DNA from: Octopus vulgaris
Lineage: Eukaryota
Reading direction: 5' to 3'
DNA: 64,000 bases
Assembly (NCBI GenBank): GCA_951406725.2
Contig: OX597815.1
Span: forward strand, 116,002,001-116,066,000
Shown one piece after another: positions 1,390 through 63,268 of this stretch (the first letter of the stretch is position 1; each line of letters opens with the position of its first letter). The notes below the pieces were generated by a model. The model did not search any database. It saw only the letters and a program-made list of their open reading frames with translations, and was not told the origin of the DNA. Position numbers and translations under genes: made by a program.

Positions 1390-4355
1390 TATACATGTAA
1401 AAAAAAGATGCATAAACTAGTTGCATTATGAGCTATTTATTTTGAGCCTGATCCTCAAAGGGACAAAAAATGAATTTAGGTACTGGATAGAATCTTTAAG
1501 CTGCCCCAGTGCAAGACTAAGAAGTATTTTTCAGTAAAATGTAAGTTTATAAATATCTACATAACATAAGGTTATAAGTATCTATATAACATCAAAGATC
1601 TGGTGCCTCCTGGTTAGTGTATCTTGTCTAGAAAAAATTCTTGTAAAGATCAAGAGGTTGTTTATGCCAATATTTATGAAAGAACAAACTCAACCTCCAA
1701 GATGGTCTCAGGACAACAAATATAAAAATATGCAGACATACATTAAAGCTGAGATTTTTGTGTTGATGGGTTTGCCAGGCAAGTGTAGATAGTATATTAG
1801 TGTCTTTGTCTTATCAGTATATCCCAGGAGGTTGTGTTGACAGCAAAGAGTTGGCATTTAAAAAAATATCATTTAAGGAGGCAAGAATAGAAATGATTCA
1901 TTCTTTCTTCAAAAGTGTTGTAACAGATGGGGGAAATTGGTCAAATAAGTTATGTAAATGGAATGCATTTGAGATGGGGAGGACTGGGTAAAGCCTAAGA
2001 GGTACTTTATCTGAGAATTTCGCAGAGAATAAAGACAATTATTATTATTTCATTTGTTTAATTCTAAAATTATGTAAATTTTTCATTTGACATTCTGTCA
2101 TTTAGGTATTCATTATCTTTTGTCACCTACTATATGTAAAGCAAATTGTTTTTATGCTTTGCCTTAAGCATAACTCACTCAACTTGCTCTTATAAAACTA
2201 TGTATCTTCAACTGATAATAACCTCATCTTTTTAACAATTATTTCTTAATAAAATATCAATTAATATTGATAATACTCCCTACTTATTGTAAAACTAGTG
2301 GATATTTTTGGTGGTTTGAATTATAATTGCTTGCTTTTGTTTTGTTCTACTTGATACAAAATCATAAACAGATAAAACAGATAAAACCATGATTAGTGAA
2401 GTTAGTGTTAATAGTGCATCAAAAGCCTAACTGGAAATTGTGAAAAAAAGACTTCACCATCTCAATGGCTGATATTTCTAGAATTTTGGAAAGTATGAAC
2501 TACAGCCCTGCATGAAATCAGTCTTAGACTTTTTCAGCAAAGCATTGACTTCACTGTACTTTGTTAAAGTATATAGACAGTATTGTATACAGACATGAAA
2601 AATTAGATGTATAAAAAATAAAATTGAGGTTATTTAAGCATTAAGATGTTTTTCACATAGATGACATTTGAGGAATTCACTTTAGTGATTTACTTTTATA
2701 TATGCTAACTTTTCATACTTACTTGTGCAGAGTATTGTAATTACTTGGTAGAATATTGTAATTGGCTTATGTCATTTCATCACTATTTTGGTAAGATGGA
2801 GTCCATATTTTGCTGAGGTGTAATAAAACTGAAACTTCTCTAGAGTTGTCTCTTGAGCTTGCCAAAATGATTAAAATAATATTAGTCATTGAGTTAATGT
2901 CTTTTCCTCACCACAATTCTAATTTTGTTTTTTATGCTCAATGTATTAAATATGTTTATACTGTTTTTCATGCAGGTGGCATCTCTGAGTAATCAATCTT
3001 AAATGATTTACTTTTAAAAAAATATACTGAACAGTTATACTAGAGTCTGCTGACTTTCTATGAAAACACTGTTTTACTTGTCAACACTATGTATTAGATT
3101 TTTGGTATTCAAGAAATTTTACTTCTGAGATTCATCAGAAGCAATAAAAATGTTCAGTTGGAAAATATAGCTTTCATTAGGATGGTTGACTATTATTAAT
3201 TCAATATATTACACCCAGTTATCTCACTATCTTATATTTAGGACCATTTCTATAGATCACAGACAACAAATAGAAGTAATACTGGATAATTAAACAATAA
3301 GATTCAGAATCTTAGTATCAGTGTTGGAAAACAAGAAGTTGATTATTTTTTTTAACATAAATATGAAAGTTGAAATTTTTTATGGAGGAGAAATAGGAAG
3401 TACAAGACTTAGCAAAAAGGTATTAATTATTATTATTATTATCATTATTATTATTATTATTAAAATGACGATCTCAATCTGAATTTCTTTTTCTCTTTCT
3501 CTCACTCTTTCTCTCTCCTTCTCTCTCTCTCTCCCTCTCTCTCTCCTCCTTCTTCCCTCCCTTCCCTGTTCCCCCCTGGTGTGTATGAAATTATTAATTC
3601 CCTGCCCTTCAATATACTACATGCTTATATTTTCTAAACTTTGGTATTTGGAGTCAGAAATAATTTCAATAATGAAACATTTTTTGTTATTTTCATATTT
3701 TAACGCAAGTCTCAAATTTCAGATACTTTGGATAAAGTTGCTGTTGAAATACTTGCAGATTTAATTATTGAAAACTCAATATTTTTTCTGTGATGCTCAA
3801 TGATGACTAAGATGAATTCTGTTGTCAAATCACTTAATATCTTTTCTCAGTTGATAATTACATTTATTGTCATATGTTACTGGTATTTGTTCCAAGGAAG
3901 TTAAGTTGACTGCAACAAGAATTGAACATAGAATAGTGATGTACTGAGTTTATATATTTGCTTAACATTTGCATCTAACATTCTAATAATAATACTGAGA
4001 GTTCTTTTTTAATGTCTTTTTTTTGTTATGGAAGTAGATATAGGGTATAAATATTGGGCTAAAAAACCCTTTGGATAAAAGCAGTCGAAGACTGCCTGTA
4101 AGATGTGAACTTATATGATAGGCATTTTACTATTGGATCAAATGAATCCATTGAATTCTCTATCCATTTTTAGAAACTTTATTCTTATCTGCAAGAATTT
4201 TCATATGAATTTGGAAACCTAGAGAGAACATGAAATAATTTTTTACAGAACAGTTTATCTCAAAGGAGATAAAGCTCTGAATTGTAGCATGTAAATATTG
4301 GCATATTTACATTATTTACATTTGATGGATATTTGTCCTTATCTTGTTTGTTGTT

Positions 4356-4401
4356 AACACAACGTTTTGGCTGATATACTCTCTAGCCTTCATCAGGTAT
4401 C
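4356..4401 (-). ncRNA. Minimal type I hammerhead ribozyme motif (G12 mutated to A)
   Basis: Minus strand: GATAC-CTGATGA-A-GGCTA-gagagtatat-CAGCC-AAAA-C-GTT-GTGTT. Helix III is the loopless palindrome AACGUU; GAAA is AAAA in this copy (CpG-type change). Confidence 0.7.
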
Positions 4402-4460
4402 TTAGGGAAATTTCGAACCTGGGTTCTCATTCCTAAGGTATTTTTCGATGTTATTATTCA

Positions 4461-4533
4461 GGTCACTGTCTGGAATCAAACTTGGAATCTTGGGGTTAGT
4501 AGCCTGTGCTCTTAACCACTAGGTCGTATACCT
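4461..4533 (-). promoter_or_regulatory. tRNA-derived head (degenerate Pol III A/B boxes), leftward
   Basis: 73-nt reverse-complement counterpart of 4536-4608. Confidence 0.65.
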
Positions 4534-4535
4534 GT

Positions 4536-4608
4536 GGGCATATGGTGTAGTGGCTAAGAGCACAGGCTACTAACCCCAAGATTCCGAGTTTGATTCCAGG
4601 CAGTGACC
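4536..4608 (+). promoter_or_regulatory. tRNA-derived head (Pol III A/B boxes), rightward
   Basis: A-box-like TGGTGTAGTGG, anticodon-loop-like CTACTAA, B-box-like GAGTTTGATTCC; 73 nt long; acceptor and T stems pair poorly, so not a functional tRNA. Confidence 0.7.
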
Positions 4609-4667
4609 TGAATAATAATATTGAAAAATACCTTAGGAATGAAAACCCAATTTTGAAATTTCCCCAA

Positions 4668-4713
4668 GATACCTGATGAAGGCTGGAGGGTATATCAGCC
4701 GAAACATTACGTT
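4668..4713 (+). ncRNA. Minimal type I hammerhead ribozyme motif (helix III and helix I damaged)
   Basis: GATAC-CTGATGA-A-GGCTG-gagggtatat-CAGCC-GAAA-C-ATT-ACGTT: core and 5-bp helix II intact; cleavage triplet and helix I 3' strand mutated relative to the other arm (GTT-GTGTT). Confidence 0.7.
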
Positions 4714-6924
4714 AACAAACAAGATGAAGACAAATATCTGTCAAATGTAAATAATGTACATAATTCCTCATCTCTTAAATATAGAACTGTAAATATTGAG
4801 TTAAAAAAAAAAAAAAAAGAAACCCTTGGATGCCATTATTTACAATCTTATCTGCTTCAAGCTAAACTGTTCCAAAAGTGTTATTTAATGTTCTCTTGAA
4901 GTTTTTAATTTATGACATCAATGTTGATACTGATTGAAATAAGGAGTTAGTATTCAAGTTTTGGTTTAGCTAGCTGATTATCACTTAAAAAATTAAAATT
5001 TTTGAGATTTATAGTTTTCTTCTTATCCATTAGTACTTTATTTTATTTTTAAATATAATTTTGCAGTGGCTACACACAGTTCTATTTGATTTAATTTCTC
5101 ATTTTACTTTCAAGGAAATTAACTTAAATGAAGTTATTTTTATTAAAAACTTCTGCCTGTACCACCATCTGAAGGAAAGTTCTTTCAATTTTCTTCTTTC
5201 AAGATGAATTACTGTGTTACACATCAATTGCGATTTTATGTAGACTTTCCTTTCTAATTTCCTATTCATGGTTTAAAATGAAATGATTTTAACTGCATTA
5301 AAAGTACATTTTTTTCTTTATATATTCTATGTTATAGCCAGCTCTTTTTTTATGCCCAAGCATTTAATTTATTCATTCATTTATTTATTCATTCTTAATC
5401 TGTTGAACACCAAATTAGCATGAGTAATATGAATTGAAGATCCTTTAAGGAAAGCTTGTGGAATTTCCTTTCTTTGTCGGAATGTGATATCTCCTTCATA
5501 GAATTAGACTCCTGTTAGTGCCTGCAGCTAATCTGCATCTTTTTTTATTGTTTCTGACTCATTCGCTATCCATTTGACCCATTTTCCTACTCTATATAGA
5601 AGTTGCATTGCTGTAATGGTGCATAGCTTGTTAATGGAATCGCTATGACAAAACTTTCACATGTGCAGGATTATTATTTGCTTTTATACAGACATAGATT
5701 CATAAATATATATCTTCTGAATCAAAGTGGTTCTACTTGTTTGTATTTATTGATATATTTGTTGGTATTCATTCTTCTAAATGACAGTATATTAATTTTC
5801 TCTATGTATATGATACCTAAACCAAGACAAAACAAAATACATTCTAGCAGCATGCAACAATGCACATGATTTTGTAAATATGCATGCACTTTTATATTTT
5901 CTTATGTTACTCTACTATTCTCATGTATTTCCTCTTGCATATTTATTGATGCTTACTCTATAAATCTATCCCTATCCTTGTTTTAGAGTGGTATTATAAT
6001 TACACATATTTATCTGGGATTTTTTTAAAGAGAACATTTTAATAAATAGTCTGACTTTGAAGTTACTATGTTGATTTATTTTGGTCAGTTCAAATTATTT
6101 AGTTATCAGGTTCCGTTTTTGCTTTATTGGTGAATTGTTAGGAGGAAATTAATTTCACTGTAGAAATAATTTTCAAAACATAGTTGTTTGTTTACATTTG
6201 CTTCACATCCATGAGGTTTTATCTTGCAATCCTTCTGCATAGCCCCTTGAACAAATATTTCTATCATAGCCTTAGTTTCATCAATGAAATTTGGAAGATG
6301 AAAACTTTGTGACAGCTTGTCATGTATATCTTTTGTCAATATACATTGGAAAAAGATGTATACTTCAGTGTGAAAACTGATAAACCAATGGGTTTGGACA
6401 AAATTACATTGTAGTTTGTATTCCAACCAAGTTGCATAAATATTCTTTTGTTATCCTCACCATTAAAGATGCAGTGACCCAGTGATTAGTCTGTTGGATA
6501 TATGACCAGCAACACTATTTTTCACAGCATAATATATGAAATAGAAATAGCTGGAAATACAATTTTTATTTTCTTTCTTAATCATCATGTTTAAGCATTA
6601 TAGAAATTTATTTAAATCTCCCTATGCATCTAAGTTTCTGTCTGCTTCTCTCTCTTTTCTCCCTGCCTCTCTCTTGCACACACAAATACATAAGCTTTAA
6701 TGAAATAAGAAACCTACAAAGATAACATAATCTTAATGCAGTTAGAAGTAAATTGATATTTATTCATATATTAATGCTCCTGCTTCCTAATGTATTTTAC
6801 ATGCATATCCTCGCATGTTATATTAGATTATCTTAACTCTCCTTTAGGGTATTGAGCACTCTATATCTATTACATAAAAATGTATCAGGAGACATTGGGA
6901 AATATAAGAAAGTGTGTGTGTATA

Positions 6925-43290: not shown

Positions 43291-43662
43291 CATGTGTATG
43301 TACATACATACACACAAGCATAGCTGTGTGGTTGAAATGTTCACTTCCCGACACAGTTTTGGATTCAATCTCACTGCATCACACCTCAGGCAGATGTCTT
43401 CTGCTATAGATTTGGGCTGACCAAAGCCTTGTGAGTGGGGTGAATTTAGCAGATGGAAACTGAAAGAAGCCTGTCCTATATGTCTATAGTTGTGTTTGTT
43501 TACATTTGATCATGTCTTATGATCAGTGATTTGTCATTTCTTCTGTCAACAAGTTGTTCACTTTGTGCTTTTGAAGCTGTCTGAAGTAAGAGATCCCTTA
43601 TTTGAAAAGCAGATAAGAGATCTCTTATTTGAAAATAGATAGCCACTACACCATATGCCCAC

Positions 43663-43733
43663 GGGTATATGGCGTAGTGGTTAAGAACGCGAGCTACTAA
43701 CCCCAAGATTCCGAGTTCGATTCCAGGCAGTGA

Positions 43734-43735
<2 letters not shown>
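43663..43735 (+). promoter_or_regulatory. tRNA-derived head with intact Pol III A and B boxes
   Basis: A box TGGCGTAGTGG (43670-43680); B box GAGTTCGATTCC (43713-43724); D-stem GCGT/ACGC; acceptor and T stems imperfect. Confidence 0.75.
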
Positions 43736-43775
<40 letters not shown>

Positions 43776-43833
43776 CAACAACAACATTGAAAAATACCTT
43801 ATGAATGAGAACCCAGGTTTGAAATTTCCCCAA

Positions 43834-43876
43834 GACACCTGATGAAGGCTAGAGGGTATATCAGCCGAAACGTGTT
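43834..43876 (+). ncRNA. Minimal type I hammerhead ribozyme motif (3-nt deletion at the cleavage triplet)
   Basis: GACAC-CTGATGA-A-GGCTA-gagggtatat-CAGCC-GAAA-C-GTGTT: core intact and helix I GACAC/GUGUU pairs, but GTT is missing relative to 4356-4401. Confidence 0.7.
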
Positions 43877-46140
43877 AACAATAAACAAGATGAAGACAAA
43901 TATCCATCAATTGTAAATAATGCAAATAAGAGTTAGTGACATGAATAGCATCCTGTTGTAAGAAAATGTCTCAATAACATATTTGTCTAACCTATGCAAA
44001 CATGGGAAAATGGATGTAAATATGAACTGTGTGTGTCAAATATTAATATTTACAATATATGCAAATTTTAATCTGATAGAAAATATCGAATAGAAATTTA
44101 GAATATTTACTCTTATGTCTTTAGTCAATAGTTTAGTGTATCTGTAATGTAGAAACTTGCAAACAAGCTGATGTAACTAAACAAATGTTTAATCTGATAT
44201 AACCTTAAATACTTTTTTCTTTGAAAGAGTAGATCAAATATCTTTTTATCAGGTTGTCAATAGCTGCTGGTTTTGTAAATTTCAAAATGAAATTCACTAA
44301 CAAAATCAAAATGAGCTGTGTACCATATGAATTTTTGTAATTTAAAAAATTTTTTGATGAGAGTGAATTAGTCCATTTATGTGTAATTTGAAATATTTGA
44401 AGATACAGTTGGAGGATATATATGTAGGAGCTATAAGTGAGTATTGAAGACTTTTGGAGAGTTGGATTATTTTATTGTTGAATGTTGGAGTTTAGAAAAG
44501 ATGTGTCATGTTGAGAAGCAAGAAAGTGGTGATTGGAGTGTTTTTTAATAGAATTGGAATCAAATCAGCATGTTCAGAATATGAACAATTGTAGAAAGGC
44601 TACAAAAGGTATAGAGAAAACAACTTGATAAAAGGTTAGAAGTAACTGGAGAAAGGTGGTGGTACAAGCTCATTCAGTTTTTGATAACATAGATTTAAAC
44701 TGGAGAAGAAAAATATACTTTTTTTATCATATTGGTTATTTTAAAATTCTGTTCATTTGAATTCATTCTTTCATCATGTAACATGTCAAAAACCATCTAT
44801 ATAACATTGATTTTGAAGTAATATGAGCAAATTTAGATTTACTTCAATTATAGAAAGAATGTGTTCTCGAAGTGGCTAGTATTCATGCTGAACAATCTCA
44901 TTTTTCTATGAATAATATCTGTGAATGCATTGGATTTGCTATTCATTAAAACTCTGTTAGGACAGTTAAGGACATATTAATTTTTTTTATATGGTTAGTT
45001 CTGTCTATAACTTTCTACGAGTACAACTTAAAGTTTAATATTGACATCAAGTTTTTAAATAAAATATTTAAGCAAATTTGTTGTTCATTTAGCAAAAGCT
45101 ACCATCATCTGCTCTTTCTCTTAGGCAATGCATTGTCCAATGTGCGCTTCCGTTTTAAGATAGGAAAAATTTGAGGTCTGTTTTGCTGGTGTATCTAGTA
45201 GTTTGTGCAATTATGCAGAGGCATTTTCGTTGCATCAGGAAATTGCTTATTTTCTGATGTATCAAATCAGTTTCTGCTTGCAACATGAGGAAAAATAAAT
45301 AAGCCAGTGGTTTAATATCTAATTGTATTTGATGGAGTATCAGGTGTAGCTAGTGCAGTTTAAAATACTGGAAGTTAGAAGTTGGTAGACAACAATAGAA
45401 GATAAAAACCATCAGATTTAAACTGTTAGTTCTTTTCATATTAATCACACTGAGTATGAACTGTTTATAAGGTATAACCCTTCTTAAATTAAAACTTATT
45501 ATTTCTAGTAATCTGATAATTATCAAGTTAAAAAAATGATTATTTTGTCTATATGAAATACTAGTCAATTTACAAAGTCCTATTAAATCTTTATTTTGCA
45601 AATTTAACTGAAGCCTATGAGAATAGGGTTAAATTAAAAAGATTCATATATCAATTAAAGTTTGTAATTGGTGTATATATGTTTGTTGGTACTTATGAGT
45701 TTTGTCTCTTCAAATTAGGTGAAAATTGAATGTGAATTTATAGTTTACAGAGCTCAATGATTGTTAGAAGCTTGATGTGCTGTTACCCTCTTAATGATTC
45801 CTTTTAAAGGAAGGTGAAAGAATGGTGCAACAATTAGATTCTTTTCATGTAAAATGCTTCCAGCTAGGAATCAACTGGATTATAATTGAATGGAACCTTG
45901 ATTTTACTCCATTGTATTTGCCACATAAAAATATACATACAAAGGTAGATGCAGAAAGATGTATTGAGACGGGTTTGTTACATTTCAGGTTAACATTTTT
46001 TAAAATTAGCTTCTCTGCCTTTCTTTTGTCTTGACCTTACAATGAATGGTTTTTCATGTTCAAATTATTGTAGGTTCTCCATATTATATTTAAAAAAAAA
46101 CAAAAAACAAAAAAAAAAACTGAGAGCTATTACTGTTCTA

Positions 46141-61468: not shown

Positions 61469-63268
61469 TTGATGAAAGTCATGGAGAGAGTCATAACCCA
61501 ACTAATTAGGGAGAGAGTTAATTTAGATGCAGTTTGGGTTTGTACCAGGGAGAAACACTGCTGATGTTATATTTCTTGTAAGACAGCTGCAGGAAAAATT
61601 CCTAGCTAAAGATAAACTTCTATGCTTGGCTTTTGTTGACATGGAGAAAGCCTTTGACAGGGTTTCCCTGTTTCCTTATTTGGTGGACAATGCAGAAACT
61701 AAGGATAGATGAGTGGTTAGTGATAGCTGTACAAGCCATGTACAGGGATGTCAGTAAGGTGAGGGTTAGCAACAACTATAGCAAAGAATTCCAGGTAGAA
61801 GTAGAGGTTAGGATCAGTCCTCAGCCCCCTCTTATTCATTATAGTCCTCTGGGTAATAACAGAGGAATTCAAGACAGGCTGCCCCTGGGATCTCCTCTTT
61901 GCTGATGACTTTGCTCTAATAGCTGAGTCACTATCAAAACTAGAGAAGAAATTTCAGGTGTGGAAGCAAGGTCTAGAATCAAAGGGCCTTAGAGTTAACC
62001 TAACAAAAGCCAAAGTCTTAATAAGTATGAAGGCGGACAAATCACAAATCCCTTTAGATAGATGGCCCTGCTCAATCTGTTGAAAAGGCATAGGTAGAAA
62101 CTCAATAGGATGTACCCGATGTAAGCTATGGACACATAAGAAGTGCAGCAATATTAAAGGAAGGTCACCAGGGAAGATAGTTTTTGAGCATGGCAGATGC
62201 ACAGATGTAATAAACACCAAAGATGTACAGAAAACAGGTTCCATTACATGCCAAGGGGAAAAACTAGTAGTAGTTGATAGCTTCCGTTACCTAGGTGACC
62301 AAGTCAGCAGCTGGGATGGATGCTCTGAGAGCGTAGCTGTAAAATAATAGCCCAGGCAAAGTTCAGAGAGCTGCCTGTGTGTGAACAGCCATGCTACATA
62401 GCAGTGAAACATGGGCTATGACTGCTGAGGACATGCGTAGGTTTGAAATAAATGAAGCCAGTATGCTCCACTGGGTGTGTAATGTCAGTGTGCATACACA
62501 ACAGCATATAATTGCCCCAAGAGAAAAGTTGGACATAAGAATCATCTGATGTTGTAAGAGAGACGACTGTGCAGGTATAGTCATGGTTAGGGTATGGATG
62601 AGGACAGCTGTGTAAAGAAGTGTCACACCCTAATAGTGGAGGGAACCTGTGGAAGAGGTAGACCCAGGAAGACATGGGATGAGGTGGTGAAGCATGACCG
62701 TTGAACGTTGGGCCTCACACAGGCAATGACAAGTAACTGAGACTTCTGAAGATATGCTGTGCTTGAGAAGACCCGGCAAGCCAAGTGAGATCATAGTTGT
62801 GTTCAATGTTCATGTCACATAACTGGCCTGTTTAAAAGCACCCTTCTTTCGTTGGGCAATATGCTGTGCTTCTGAAGACCTGCCAGACCGAGTGAAATTA
62901 TAGTCGTGGCCAGTGCCAGTGCCACCTGACTGGCACCCATGACAGTGGCATGTAAAAGGCACCATTCAAGCATGGTTAATGCCAGTGCTGCCTGACTGGC
63001 ACCCATGCTGGTGGCAAGTAAAAAGCACCATTCAAGCAAGGCTGATGCCAGTGCTGCCTGACTGGCTCCCATGCCACTGGCACATAAAATGCACCTACTA
63101 CACTCTCGGAGTGGTTGACATTATGAAGAGCACCCAGTTGTAGAAACCTTGCTAAATCAGATTGGAACCTGGTGCAGCCTCCTGGCTTGCTAGTCCTCAG
63201 TCAAACCGTCCAACCCATGCCAGCATGGAAAACAGATATTAAACAGATGTTAAACGATGATGATGATG
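61462..63268 (+). mobile_element. 5'-truncated RTE-clade LINE (RT pseudogene, three 66-bp UTR units, (GAT)n tail)
   Basis: DQLMKVMERVITQLIRERVNLD, MQFGFVPGRNTADVIFLVRQLQEKFLAKDKLLCLAFVDMEKAFDRV, GSVLSPLLFI, LLFADD, KTWDEVVKHD; several frameshifts and stops; units at 62914, 62980 and 63046. Confidence 0.95.

What the first reader, a model, noticed from the sequence alone, without database searches (positions are those of the whole stretch)
4290..4798. Palindromic retroelement with two divergent tRNA-derived Pol III heads, each reading outward into a hammerhead ribozyme
Seen: a 487-bp insert with an 11-bp TSD (tgtaaatattg). It is a hairpin of about 225-bp arms around a 2-nt loop plus a 29-nt one-sided tail. 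Each arm is a 73-nt tRNA-like head (A/B boxes), then (AAT)n, a spacer and a CTGATGA...GAAA hammerhead. Combining the three arms in the window (here and 43640-43925) gives an intact consensus GACAC-CUGAUGA-A-GGCUG..CAGCC-GAAA-C-GUU/GUGUU. It has a loopless palindromic helix III (AACGUU) and an extra A between A9 and G10.1. Established: minimal type I hammerheads with palindromic helix III, thought to act as dimers, occur in Penelope-like element repeats. Inverted terminal repeats with an unpaired tail are also a Penelope feature. Schistosome SM-alpha elements pair a tRNA-derived Pol III promoter with a hammerhead, and an extra A at that core position is tolerated in a natural viroid hammerhead. 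Inference: this is a SINE/retrozyme-like parasite of a Penelope-type RT/GIY-YIG system, transcribed bidirectionally by Pol III and end-processed by self-cleavage. I do not know of this palindromic double-headed form being described in molluscs.
Basis: partly seen in the sequence, partly recalled or inferred. Interest (0 to 1): 0.9.

Follow-up and report, generated by a model that had tools for sequence, protein, structure and literature searches.

The report
Penelope retroelement end with tRNA-derived head
The palindrome is a dead, doubled end-piece of a Penelope-type jumping gene; the unusual part is that this end-piece begins with a tRNA-derived promoter-like sequence, which hints that a protein-coding jumping gene was read by the polymerase normally reserved for small RNAs.

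Summary
The anatomy is real: a 487-bp insert, an exact 11-bp duplication, 87%-identical inverted arms, a one-sided tail, tRNA-like heads and a minimal hammerhead. It is not a separate double-headed SINE. Each arm is the pseudo-LTR (pLTR) of a decayed Penelope/Poseidon-type element. The head follows the RT/GIY-YIG ORF in 28 of 29 ORF-selected loci, and hammerhead plus tail run in frame into the ORF start. Inverted pLTR, one-sided tail, junction palindrome and this hammerhead type are published Penelope features. Two complete heads occur in only 3 of 30 centre-selected copies. All three window arms have broken hammerheads, and both arms of the finding have a mutated B box.

I did not find in print a tRNA-Arg(ACG)-derived head with A/B boxes inside a coding Penelope's pLTR. 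Copy 5' ends pile up just upstream of it, many at -6. No run of four T is shared along 2.6 kb of sense strand, whereas composition-matched Penelope controls have about 3 per kb. This suggests (about 35%) a protein-coding retrotransposon transcribed by RNA polymerase III. The RNA-seq laid here could not test that. Verdict: new variant of a known kind.

The parts
4290..4300 (+). Left copy of target-site duplication (11 bp; true length 7-11 because of 4-nt microhomology with the element end)
4301..4303 (.). 3 extra nucleotides at the left junction, origin unknown
4304..4533 (-). Inverted, tail-less pLTR arm, beginning at the internal RT start site; on its own strand it is preceded by the native GCCCAC leader
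4356..4401 (-). Minimal type I hammerhead of left arm, broken (G12A, one stem II mismatch)
4461..4533 (-). tRNA-Arg(ACG)-derived head of left arm; A box 4516-4526 damaged, B box 4472-4483 with C-to-T change
4530..4539 (.). Centre: decayed 4-bp stem with 2-nt loop (4534-4535), the fold-back point, formed from the element's native -6..+4 sequence
4536..4762 (+). Direct pLTR arm (paired part)
4536..4608 (+). tRNA-Arg(ACG)-derived head of right arm; A box 4543-4553, B box 4586-4597 with C-to-T change
4611..4619 (+). (AAT)n tract, length variable between copies
4639..4787 (+). Remnant of the first about 50 codons of the Penelope ORF (ATG 4639-4641 inferred as start; one stop in this copy); hammerhead and tail lie inside it
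4668..4713 (+). Minimal type I hammerhead of right arm, broken (G16.2A, altered 3' strand of stem I)
4763..4787 (+). One-sided Penelope 'tail': sequence between the two RT start sites
   Evidence: PMC11167929
4788..4798 (+). Right copy of target-site duplication; first 4 nt also match the element's continuation
43640..43929 (+). Second insertion of the family: 21-nt fold-back, whole head, long (AAT/AAC)n, hammerhead with 3-nt deletion, no tail

Best explanation
The finding is a dead, ORF-less insertion of a Penelope/Poseidon-type retroelement. Shown: the whole element is pLTR - ORF of about 2.3 kb (RT, then GIY-YIG) - 29-nt 3' UTR - pLTR. The pLTR is a tRNA-Arg-derived head, (AAT)n, the start of the ORF, a minimal hammerhead and the tail. 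Inferred mechanism, built on the anole element: the protein nicks both target strands about 10 bp apart and primes two cDNAs at two internal RNA sites about 30 nt apart. This gives one tailed and one tail-less arm, head to head, and a short duplication. A cDNA that reaches the RNA 5' end at -6 ends in a 4-bp hairpin, folds back and primes second-strand synthesis. It is then joined to the other cDNA, usually after 10-23 nt, and occasionally the whole second arm is present, as here. Because priming is internal and near the RNA 5' end, solo pLTRs are expected products of the coding element's own RNA; no SINE master is needed. The head most likely marks the promoter (about 55%). Whether the polymerase is Pol III for the whole coding RNA is the open part (about 35%). 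The confidence given is for the identity and the insertion by-product reading.
For: Head follows the ORF 3' end in 28 of 29 loci chosen by an ORF query. RT motifs, the DKG motif and a C-terminal endonuclease are readable in decayed copies; Pfam RVT_1 E 5.5e-10; the EN piece aligns to the Pfam GIY-YIG region of relative P0080, E 9e-11. Tail continues in frame into the ORF in L066, L082, L089, L090, with 150 genome matches to that junction. 50 of 54 inverted pairs have exactly one tailed arm; duplications of at least 10 bp in 34 of 54 versus 2% of cross-locus controls. The two arms of one insertion share 24 derived changes versus 7.9 expected across loci (max 20 in 2000 shuffles; 32 of 49 pairs usable). 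The centre motif has 302 exact matches and the ORF-head junction 452, both controls 0. Partner-arm breakpoints differ locus by locus. Ages are equal across classes. Literature: PMC11167929, PMC3846280, PMC8557442, PMC4209133.
Against: No intact or young full-length copy was seen; L090 spans the element but is decayed. In 8 of 30 centre loci the whole arm lies on the flipped side of the loop. Simple fold-back does not give this; it needs hairpin opening on the other strand or transcription from earlier double-headed copies. 8 of 20 ORF-junction copies end at -19 to -42 (1.2 expected), so 5' ends are not confined to -6. One ORF-deleted mini-element occurs twice with different 5' ends (L277, L278), so some trans-mobilisation happened. 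About 20 of the 54 pairs show no clear duplication, and 3-4 are probably mis-paired. Most loci were chosen by best score or exact motif, not at random.
Confidence: 0.85

Rival explanations
1. One reading: an independent palindromic SINE/retrozyme whose double-headed masters are transcribed outward by Pol III, processed by the hammerhead and mobilised in trans by a Penelope protein.
For: The centre is fixed and common (302 exact matches). 8 of 30 centre loci have the whole arm on the flipped side, as transcription from a double-headed source would give. Family A and B boxes fit consensus. A mini-element was mobilised at least once.
Against: The arm is part of the coding element. Two whole heads in only 3 of 30. 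Partner-arm breakpoints are unique per locus. No age offset. Solo pLTRs end at the RT start site, while the anole protein needed about 55 nt beyond it (PMC11167929), so they may be poor templates (inference). The cut site does not match element ends. At this locus both B boxes and both ribozymes are mutated.
Confidence: 0.1
2. On the promoter question only: the tRNA-like head is a passenger, such as a captured SINE head. The element was made by Pol II or read-through, and ends pile up at -6 because the native hairpin is a self-priming trap or because a Pol II start lies there.
For: Known Penelope promoters are Pol II-type (Inr/DPE in D. virilis, PMC2377424; putative TATA/Inr in A. vaga, PMC3846280). 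A TATA-like 7-mer lies about 24-30 nt before -6 (sequences). A second cluster of ends lies at -19 to -42. Junction palindromes are common in Penelopes without tRNA heads (PMC3846280). tRNA-Arg heads are common in mollusc SINEs (PMC4758252). Translation of an uncapped Pol III RNA is unusual (recalled). One long control ORF also has few T runs (L173: 1 in 2301 nt).
Against: No shared run of four T in 2.63 kb versus 31 shared runs of four A. 14 observed versus 40 expected by codon resampling (copies not independent; about 4.6 expected per element). Controls match expectation (154 versus 152) and 0 of 16 long controls have zero. Position -6 is a purine after a pyrimidine, 13 nt before box A, a typical Pol III start (recalled rule). 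A template-jump junction falls exactly at -6, and several copies end at -3 to -6 without fold-back.
Confidence: 0.45
3. A DNA-transposon MITE with terminal inverted repeats, or an assembly artefact.
For: Near-perfect long inverted repeat with a direct repeat at its ends.
Against: Arm lengths and duplication lengths vary, ends are asymmetric and the partner ORF is RT/GIY-YIG. Arms differ by 13%. Opposite-strand joints of the same kind appear in raw RNA reads (table 5).
Confidence: 0.01

Closest known systems
Penelope/Poseidon clade of EN+ Penelope-like elements, e.g. Poseidon of Anolis carolinensis (PAc; PMC11167929)
   Same: RT then C-terminal GIY-YIG; pLTR overlapping the ORF start; hammerhead at the ORF start; tail between two internal RT start sites; AT-rich targets; inverted 5'-truncated copy.
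   Different: tRNA-Arg-derived head with A/B boxes in the pLTR; ATG lies upstream of the whole ribozyme; no shared T4 runs on the sense strand.
Adineta vaga Pen elements (PMC3846280)
   Same: Inverted pLTR with a 31-bp optional tail, 8-10 bp duplications, palindromes at the inverted junction read as self-priming, solo pLTRs, trans-mobilisation by pLTRs.
   Different: Their pLTR has a putative TATA/Inr; the word tRNA does not occur in that paper.
Minimal PLE hammerheads (Cervera and de la Pena 2014, PMC4209133)
   Same: Extra nucleotide between 9 and 10.1, G10.1-C11.1, palindromic 15.2-16.2, short helix I.
   Different: None in the ribozyme itself.
TRIMp3: Helenus, Ajax, Cassandra (PMC10886601, abstract)
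   Same: Small-RNA-derived, Pol III-type promoter placed inside a terminal repeat of a retroelement.
   Different: Those are non-autonomous LTR elements with PBS/PPT and 4-5 bp duplications; here the repeat is a pLTR of a coding Penelope.
Schistosoma SM-alpha / Sj-alpha SINE-like repeats (as reviewed in PMC6765202; primary paper not held)
   Same: Pol III-type promoter followed by a hammerhead.
   Different: Non-coding and often in tandem; here the unit is part of a coding element and is mostly inserted inverted.
Octopus OR1, OR2, OK SINEs (Ohshima and Okada 1994; not held, recalled)
   Same: tRNA-derived heads; tRNA-Arg origin for OR1/OR2 is recalled.
   Different: OR2 is a CORE SINE (PMC4758252), which this is not. 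OR1 and OK could not be compared, so an older SINE name for the solo pLTR is not excluded.

Membership tests
EN+ Penelope-like element (Penelope/Poseidon) | Single ORF with PLE-type RT | tested here: met
   Motifs in decayed copies; RVT_1 E 5.5e-10; 992 relatives at E<=1e-20
EN+ Penelope-like element (Penelope/Poseidon) | C-terminal GIY-YIG endonuclease | tested here: met
   80-aa piece aligns to the Pfam GIY-YIG region of P0080, E 9e-11; Pfam alone did not hit the family's own pieces
EN+ Penelope-like element (Penelope/Poseidon) | pLTR at both ends of the ORF, overlapping its start | tested here: met
   L090, L066, L089, L271-L275
EN+ Penelope-like element (Penelope/Poseidon) | Inverted 5'-truncated copy with one-sided 30-40 nt tail and short variable TSD | tested here: met
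   50 of 54 pairs one-tailed; TSD >=10 bp in 34 of 54 versus 2% control; tail here is 25-33 nt
EN+ Penelope-like element (Penelope/Poseidon) | Minimal hammerhead in the pLTR | tested here: met
   17 of 99 arms intact by motif and pairing; no Rfam match
EN+ Penelope-like element (Penelope/Poseidon) | Clade assignment: no Zn-finger linker (Neptune/Nematis), DKG not DKA, EN not N-terminal (Naiad) | tested here: inconclusive
   By eye: DKG present, no CxxC linker, EN C-terminal; no tree against named families was built
tRNA-derived SINE | tRNA-derived head with A and B boxes | tested here: met
tRNA-derived SINE | Non-coding unit independent of the partner except for a shared 3' end | tested here: not met
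   Head itself is part of the coding element in 28 of 29 ORF loci; same age
tRNA-derived SINE | Transcribed by Pol III | not testable with these tools
   Unstranded RNA-seq mirrors copy number; sequence signs only
Metazoan non-LTR retrozyme | Tandem units with canonical hammerheads giving circular RNA | tested here: not met
   Copies are mostly dispersed and inverted, and the ribozyme is the minimal PLE type; circular RNA itself not testable
TRIMp3 (Helenus/Ajax/Cassandra) | Two direct LTRs with PBS/PPT and fixed 4-5 bp TSD, non-autonomous | tested here: not met
   Variable longer TSDs and a coding PLE parent
MITE / DNA transposon | Symmetric TIRs, fixed TSD, transposase partner | tested here: not met

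The most novel reading that the evidence does not exclude
This family was an autonomous, protein-coding Penelope transcribed end to end by RNA polymerase III from a captured tRNA-Arg promoter in its pLTR. RNA began 6 nt before the head, the 2.6-kb element was purged of T4 terminators, and an uncapped RNA was translated. Its many solo and palindromic pLTR copies look like SINEs but are by-products that map the RNA's 5' end, and some may have served as new sources.
Probability: 0.35. Interest if true: 0.82.

Novelty: new variant of a known kind. Interest (0 to 1): 0.58.

Why it matters
Autonomous retrotransposons are taken to use Pol II (or Pol I read-through for R2) and SINEs Pol III (PMC5786205 and PMC6765202 passages). 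A coding element with a tRNA-derived internal promoter and no Pol III terminators would cross that line and show a new route between SINE-like repeats and their parents. Even if Pol III is wrong, tens of thousands of copies (6 in 400 kb sampled blind) give a large natural record for an open question: how Penelope elements make the second strand and the head-to-head junction. The fixed fold-back point, loop flip-flop and 10-23 nt caps make hairpin-priming models testable. It also warns that some repeats annotated as tRNA SINEs in such genomes may be solo Penelope pLTRs.

Tried and rejected
Rfam found no hammerhead or tRNA in the finding, in an intact copy or in a good head. ARAGORN found no tRNA in the window or in 6 family loci. 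Monomer folds of 45-52 nt pieces gave stem II but no hammerhead fold, z -0.6 to -2.0 (the L030 piece was cut short of stem I).

Telomerase-like reiteration of a 9-nt unit at the internal start site was rejected. A loose test was uninformative and a strict one gave 10 of 49 tail-less versus 7 of 49 tailed arms, p 0.59.

A second tRNA-headed Penelope in control locus L196 was rejected. Its tRNA match is followed by T runs and is absent from the element's 3' pLTR. Relaxed ARAGORN on control loci gave noise only. My A/B-box regular expression is insensitive (9 of 30 family loci), so absence of heads in controls rests mainly on no B box upstream of any of the 26 control hammerhead-like matches and on a tRNA-Arg profile.

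The automatic arm classification failed because the extension was too strict (it printed 9/4/0/17). The 3/17/8/2 split is my reading.

The mini-element junction has only 2 genome matches, so it is no major subfamily.

Sequencing runs: no holder on record as RNA was listed. Three raw RNA-seq runs of a coded organism that may not be the window's species were unstranded. Depth followed copy number, 71-76% of reads ran on into unrelated sequence, and no end pile-up appeared at the cut site or head, but part of the head was masked. This says nothing for or against Pol III or cleavage.

The blind sample is 400 kb plus the window, so copy number is rough. Earlier findings: three look-ups returned nothing. 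Papers not held: Lunse 2017, Ohshima and Okada 1994, Ferbeyre 1998; no SINEBase supplement. Repbase and Dfam could not be searched.


Full report
Observation. There are identical 11-mers at 4290-4300 and 4788-4798, a 487-bp insert, arms 86.6% identical around a 2-nt centre, a 25-29 nt one-sided tail and a third arm near 43640-43929. The genome is 2.8 Gb in 227 contigs, and the arm has at least 4888 search candidates. A blind sample of 40 stretches of 10 kb held 6 family insertions, which scales to roughly 15,000-90,000 copies.

The arm is a Penelope pseudo-LTR. Two of the first 30 loci had a decayed ORF directly upstream of the head. A search with that ORF piece alone returned 29 other loci, and 28 of them have the head after the ORF end. 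Walking upstream gave RT motifs, the DKG motif and a C-terminal endonuclease. Pfam RVT_1 matched at E 5.5e-10, and the EN piece aligned to the GIY-YIG region of a relative. At the other end, hammerhead and tail continue in frame into the ORF N-terminus (150 matches to that junction with one mismatch allowed). The 5' pLTR reaches into the head in L271 and L277. L090 spans pLTR-ORF-pLTR. All copies seen are decayed, about 6% non-CpG divergence in the head.

The palindrome is an insertion outcome. Among 54 head-to-head pairs found in loci L001-L160 (mostly chosen by score or motif; 3-4 probably mis-paired), 50 have exactly one tailed arm. Inserts run from 252 to 2246 bp, and duplications of at least 10 bp (one mismatch allowed, microhomology included) occur in 34, against 2% of cross-locus controls. 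This is the published Penelope signature: inverted pLTR, optional 30-40 nt tail, 8-10 bp duplications, junction palindromes (PMC3846280 and PMC8557442, passages). In the anole element the protein extends both target strands, and the tail is the stretch between two internal RT start sites (PMC11167929, parts 1-2 of 4, which cover the main text). The centre derives from native sequence: the coding element has GCCCAC just before the head's GGGC, so a cDNA ending at -6 can fold back. The centre motif has 302 exact matches and the ORF-head junction 452. In the first 30 centre loci, by my reading have two whole heads, 17 a whole arm on the native side, 8 on the flipped side and 2 neither. The short side is a 10-23 nt cap (lower limit set by the pattern), followed by flank or a jump to a position that differs per locus. 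The two arms of one insertion share more derived changes than arms of different insertions (24 versus 7.9; 32 of 49 pairs usable), as expected from one template or later conversion. Fold-back copies are no younger than ORF-junction copies (6.2% in 20 native-side heads, which include the 3 double-headed loci, and 5.7% in 8 flipped-side heads, versus 6.35% in 20).

The hammerhead is ordinary for the family. The extra base after A9 and the palindromic helix III are listed as typical of PLE hammerheads (PMC4209133, passages). 11 of 15 control Penelope loci with sequence after the ORF show a hammerhead motif there. 17 of 99 arms are intact and none of the window's three. The cut site is inside the ORF and matches no element end. 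In the anole system ribozyme mutants still inserted in vitro (PMC11167929). GUU-site activity, monomer or dimer, was not testable here.

What is unusual. (1) The head is tRNA-Arg(ACG)-derived (56-63% gap-free identity), with family A and B boxes that fit the recalled consensus. No control hammerhead-like match had a B box within 220 nt upstream (0 of 26). (2) 5' ends concentrate just before it. Fold-backs at -6 are about as common as read-through into the 3' UTR (my rough correction for pattern degeneracy gives 0.85 to 1). Further copies end at -3 to -6. A template-jump junction sits exactly at -6 (L277, L278). 8 of 20 ORF-junction copies (the first listed on contig 1, one already-held locus skipped) end at -19 to -42, where 1.2 were expected. 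In the blind sample plus window, 3 of 5 head-bearing insertions fold back at -6. (3) The sense strand lacks Pol III terminators. There are 0.49 T4 runs per kb in decayed copies and 14 observed versus 40 expected by synonymous-codon resampling (40 non-independent segments). No T4 site is shared by more than 22% of copies over 2.63 kb, against 31 shared A4 sites (coverage only 5-15 copies in the first 400 nt of ORF). In 67 usable of 80 control loci, T4 counts match expectation (154 versus 152 at 20-26% T). Composition-matched controls have 3.0 per kb, and 0 of 16 long ORFs have none. Against: one long control has only 1, several short ones have 0, the chance of zero for one element is about 1% (my Poisson estimate), and known Penelope promoters are Pol II-type (PMC2377424, PMC3846280, passages).

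Mechanism, with status. Shown: family identity, pLTR anatomy, two outer-end positions, duplications, fixed fold-back point, same-template arms. Inferred from the anole work: two-strand priming at two internal sites, and solo pLTRs copied from the 5' part of the element's own RNA. Inferred here: hairpin self-priming at -6. The flipped copies come either from opening a hairpin intermediate on either strand (the caps often end near the TTAA at +19 to +22) or from transcription of earlier double-headed copies; these two are not separated. Speculative: Pol III transcription of the coding RNA and cap-independent translation.

RNA evidence. Three raw RNA-seq runs and one contig set were laid on L090. 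The libraries are unstranded and depth tracks copy number, falling about 250-fold from pLTR to the 5' ORF. Most reads run into unrelated sequence and no ends pile up. This fits passive read-through of old copies and cannot test promoter or cleavage.

Novelty. Ten full-text searches listed no paper describing a tRNA-headed Penelope or a cephalopod hammerhead SINE; for most listed papers I saw only title and abstract start. Passages read in PMC13282606, PMC8967140, PMC6962438, PMC4758252, PMC7761336, PMC6765202 and PMC5786205 do not describe it. The nearest concept is TRIMp3 (PMC10886601, abstract and reference passages). Subscription papers, Repbase, Dfam, the 1994 octopus SINE paper and the supplement of PMC13282606 (listed, not read) may hold this family under a Penelope or SINE name. 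The palindromic form itself is already known for Penelopes; the tRNA-headed pLTR is a new variant, and its Pol III reading is a testable possibility.

Noticed in passing
L002:1283-1800 and L008 (about 1450-2050): Both arms carry the tail, and the inverted repeat runs about 45-50 nt into flanking DNA. This suggests one strand was copied from the other, or from target DNA, during or after insertion.
   Followed up: partly
L277, L278 (contig C3, about 1 Mb apart): ORF-deleted mini-element (pLTR, first 236 nt after the tail, 2 extra nt, then the -6 leader and pLTR) with the same junction but different 5' ends; only 2 genome matches. L269, L270, L272, L276, L279 and L280 are other deletion derivatives.
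   Followed up: yes
L032, L039, L053, L257: Head-to-head insertions in which both arms carry several hundred nt of ORF; the same geometry as the finding at larger scale.
   Followed up: partly
L045:2155-2867 (oriented): Five extra tandem copies of a 150-nt unit made of ORF end, 3' UTR and the first 34 nt of the head.
   Followed up: no
L268, L267: A possible second fold-back point at a 6-bp AT palindrome about 30-36 nt upstream of the head.
   Followed up: no
window:4208-4290 and 4830-4911: The flanks show a weak inverted similarity (72-77%); the element may have inserted into an older decayed inverted repeat.
   Followed up: partly
window:29176-29234, 43320-43480; L131, L139, L160: Two other abundant tRNA-headed SINE families with different heads and bodies; one looks like a CORE-type SINE (recalled).
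   Followed up: partly
window:17031-17779: GC-rich tandem repeat array giving long open frames on both strands.
   Followed up: no
window:22766-23245 and 61954-62286: Fragments of another reverse transcriptase (LYADD motif), probably an RTE-type LINE (by eye).
   Followed up: no
G000:C2:211829002-211969192: Cluster of at least 25 tRNA-Arg(ACG)-motif matches, many about 206 nt apart: a tandem tRNA gene array.
   Followed up: no
L173 (control, OFEN01001488.1): A long Penelope ORF with 1 T4 run versus 3.9 expected and no tRNA head detected; chance or a similar constraint.
   Followed up: partly
L196:2013-2080: Rfam tRNA match upstream of a 5'-truncated Penelope; not part of its pLTR.
   Followed up: yes
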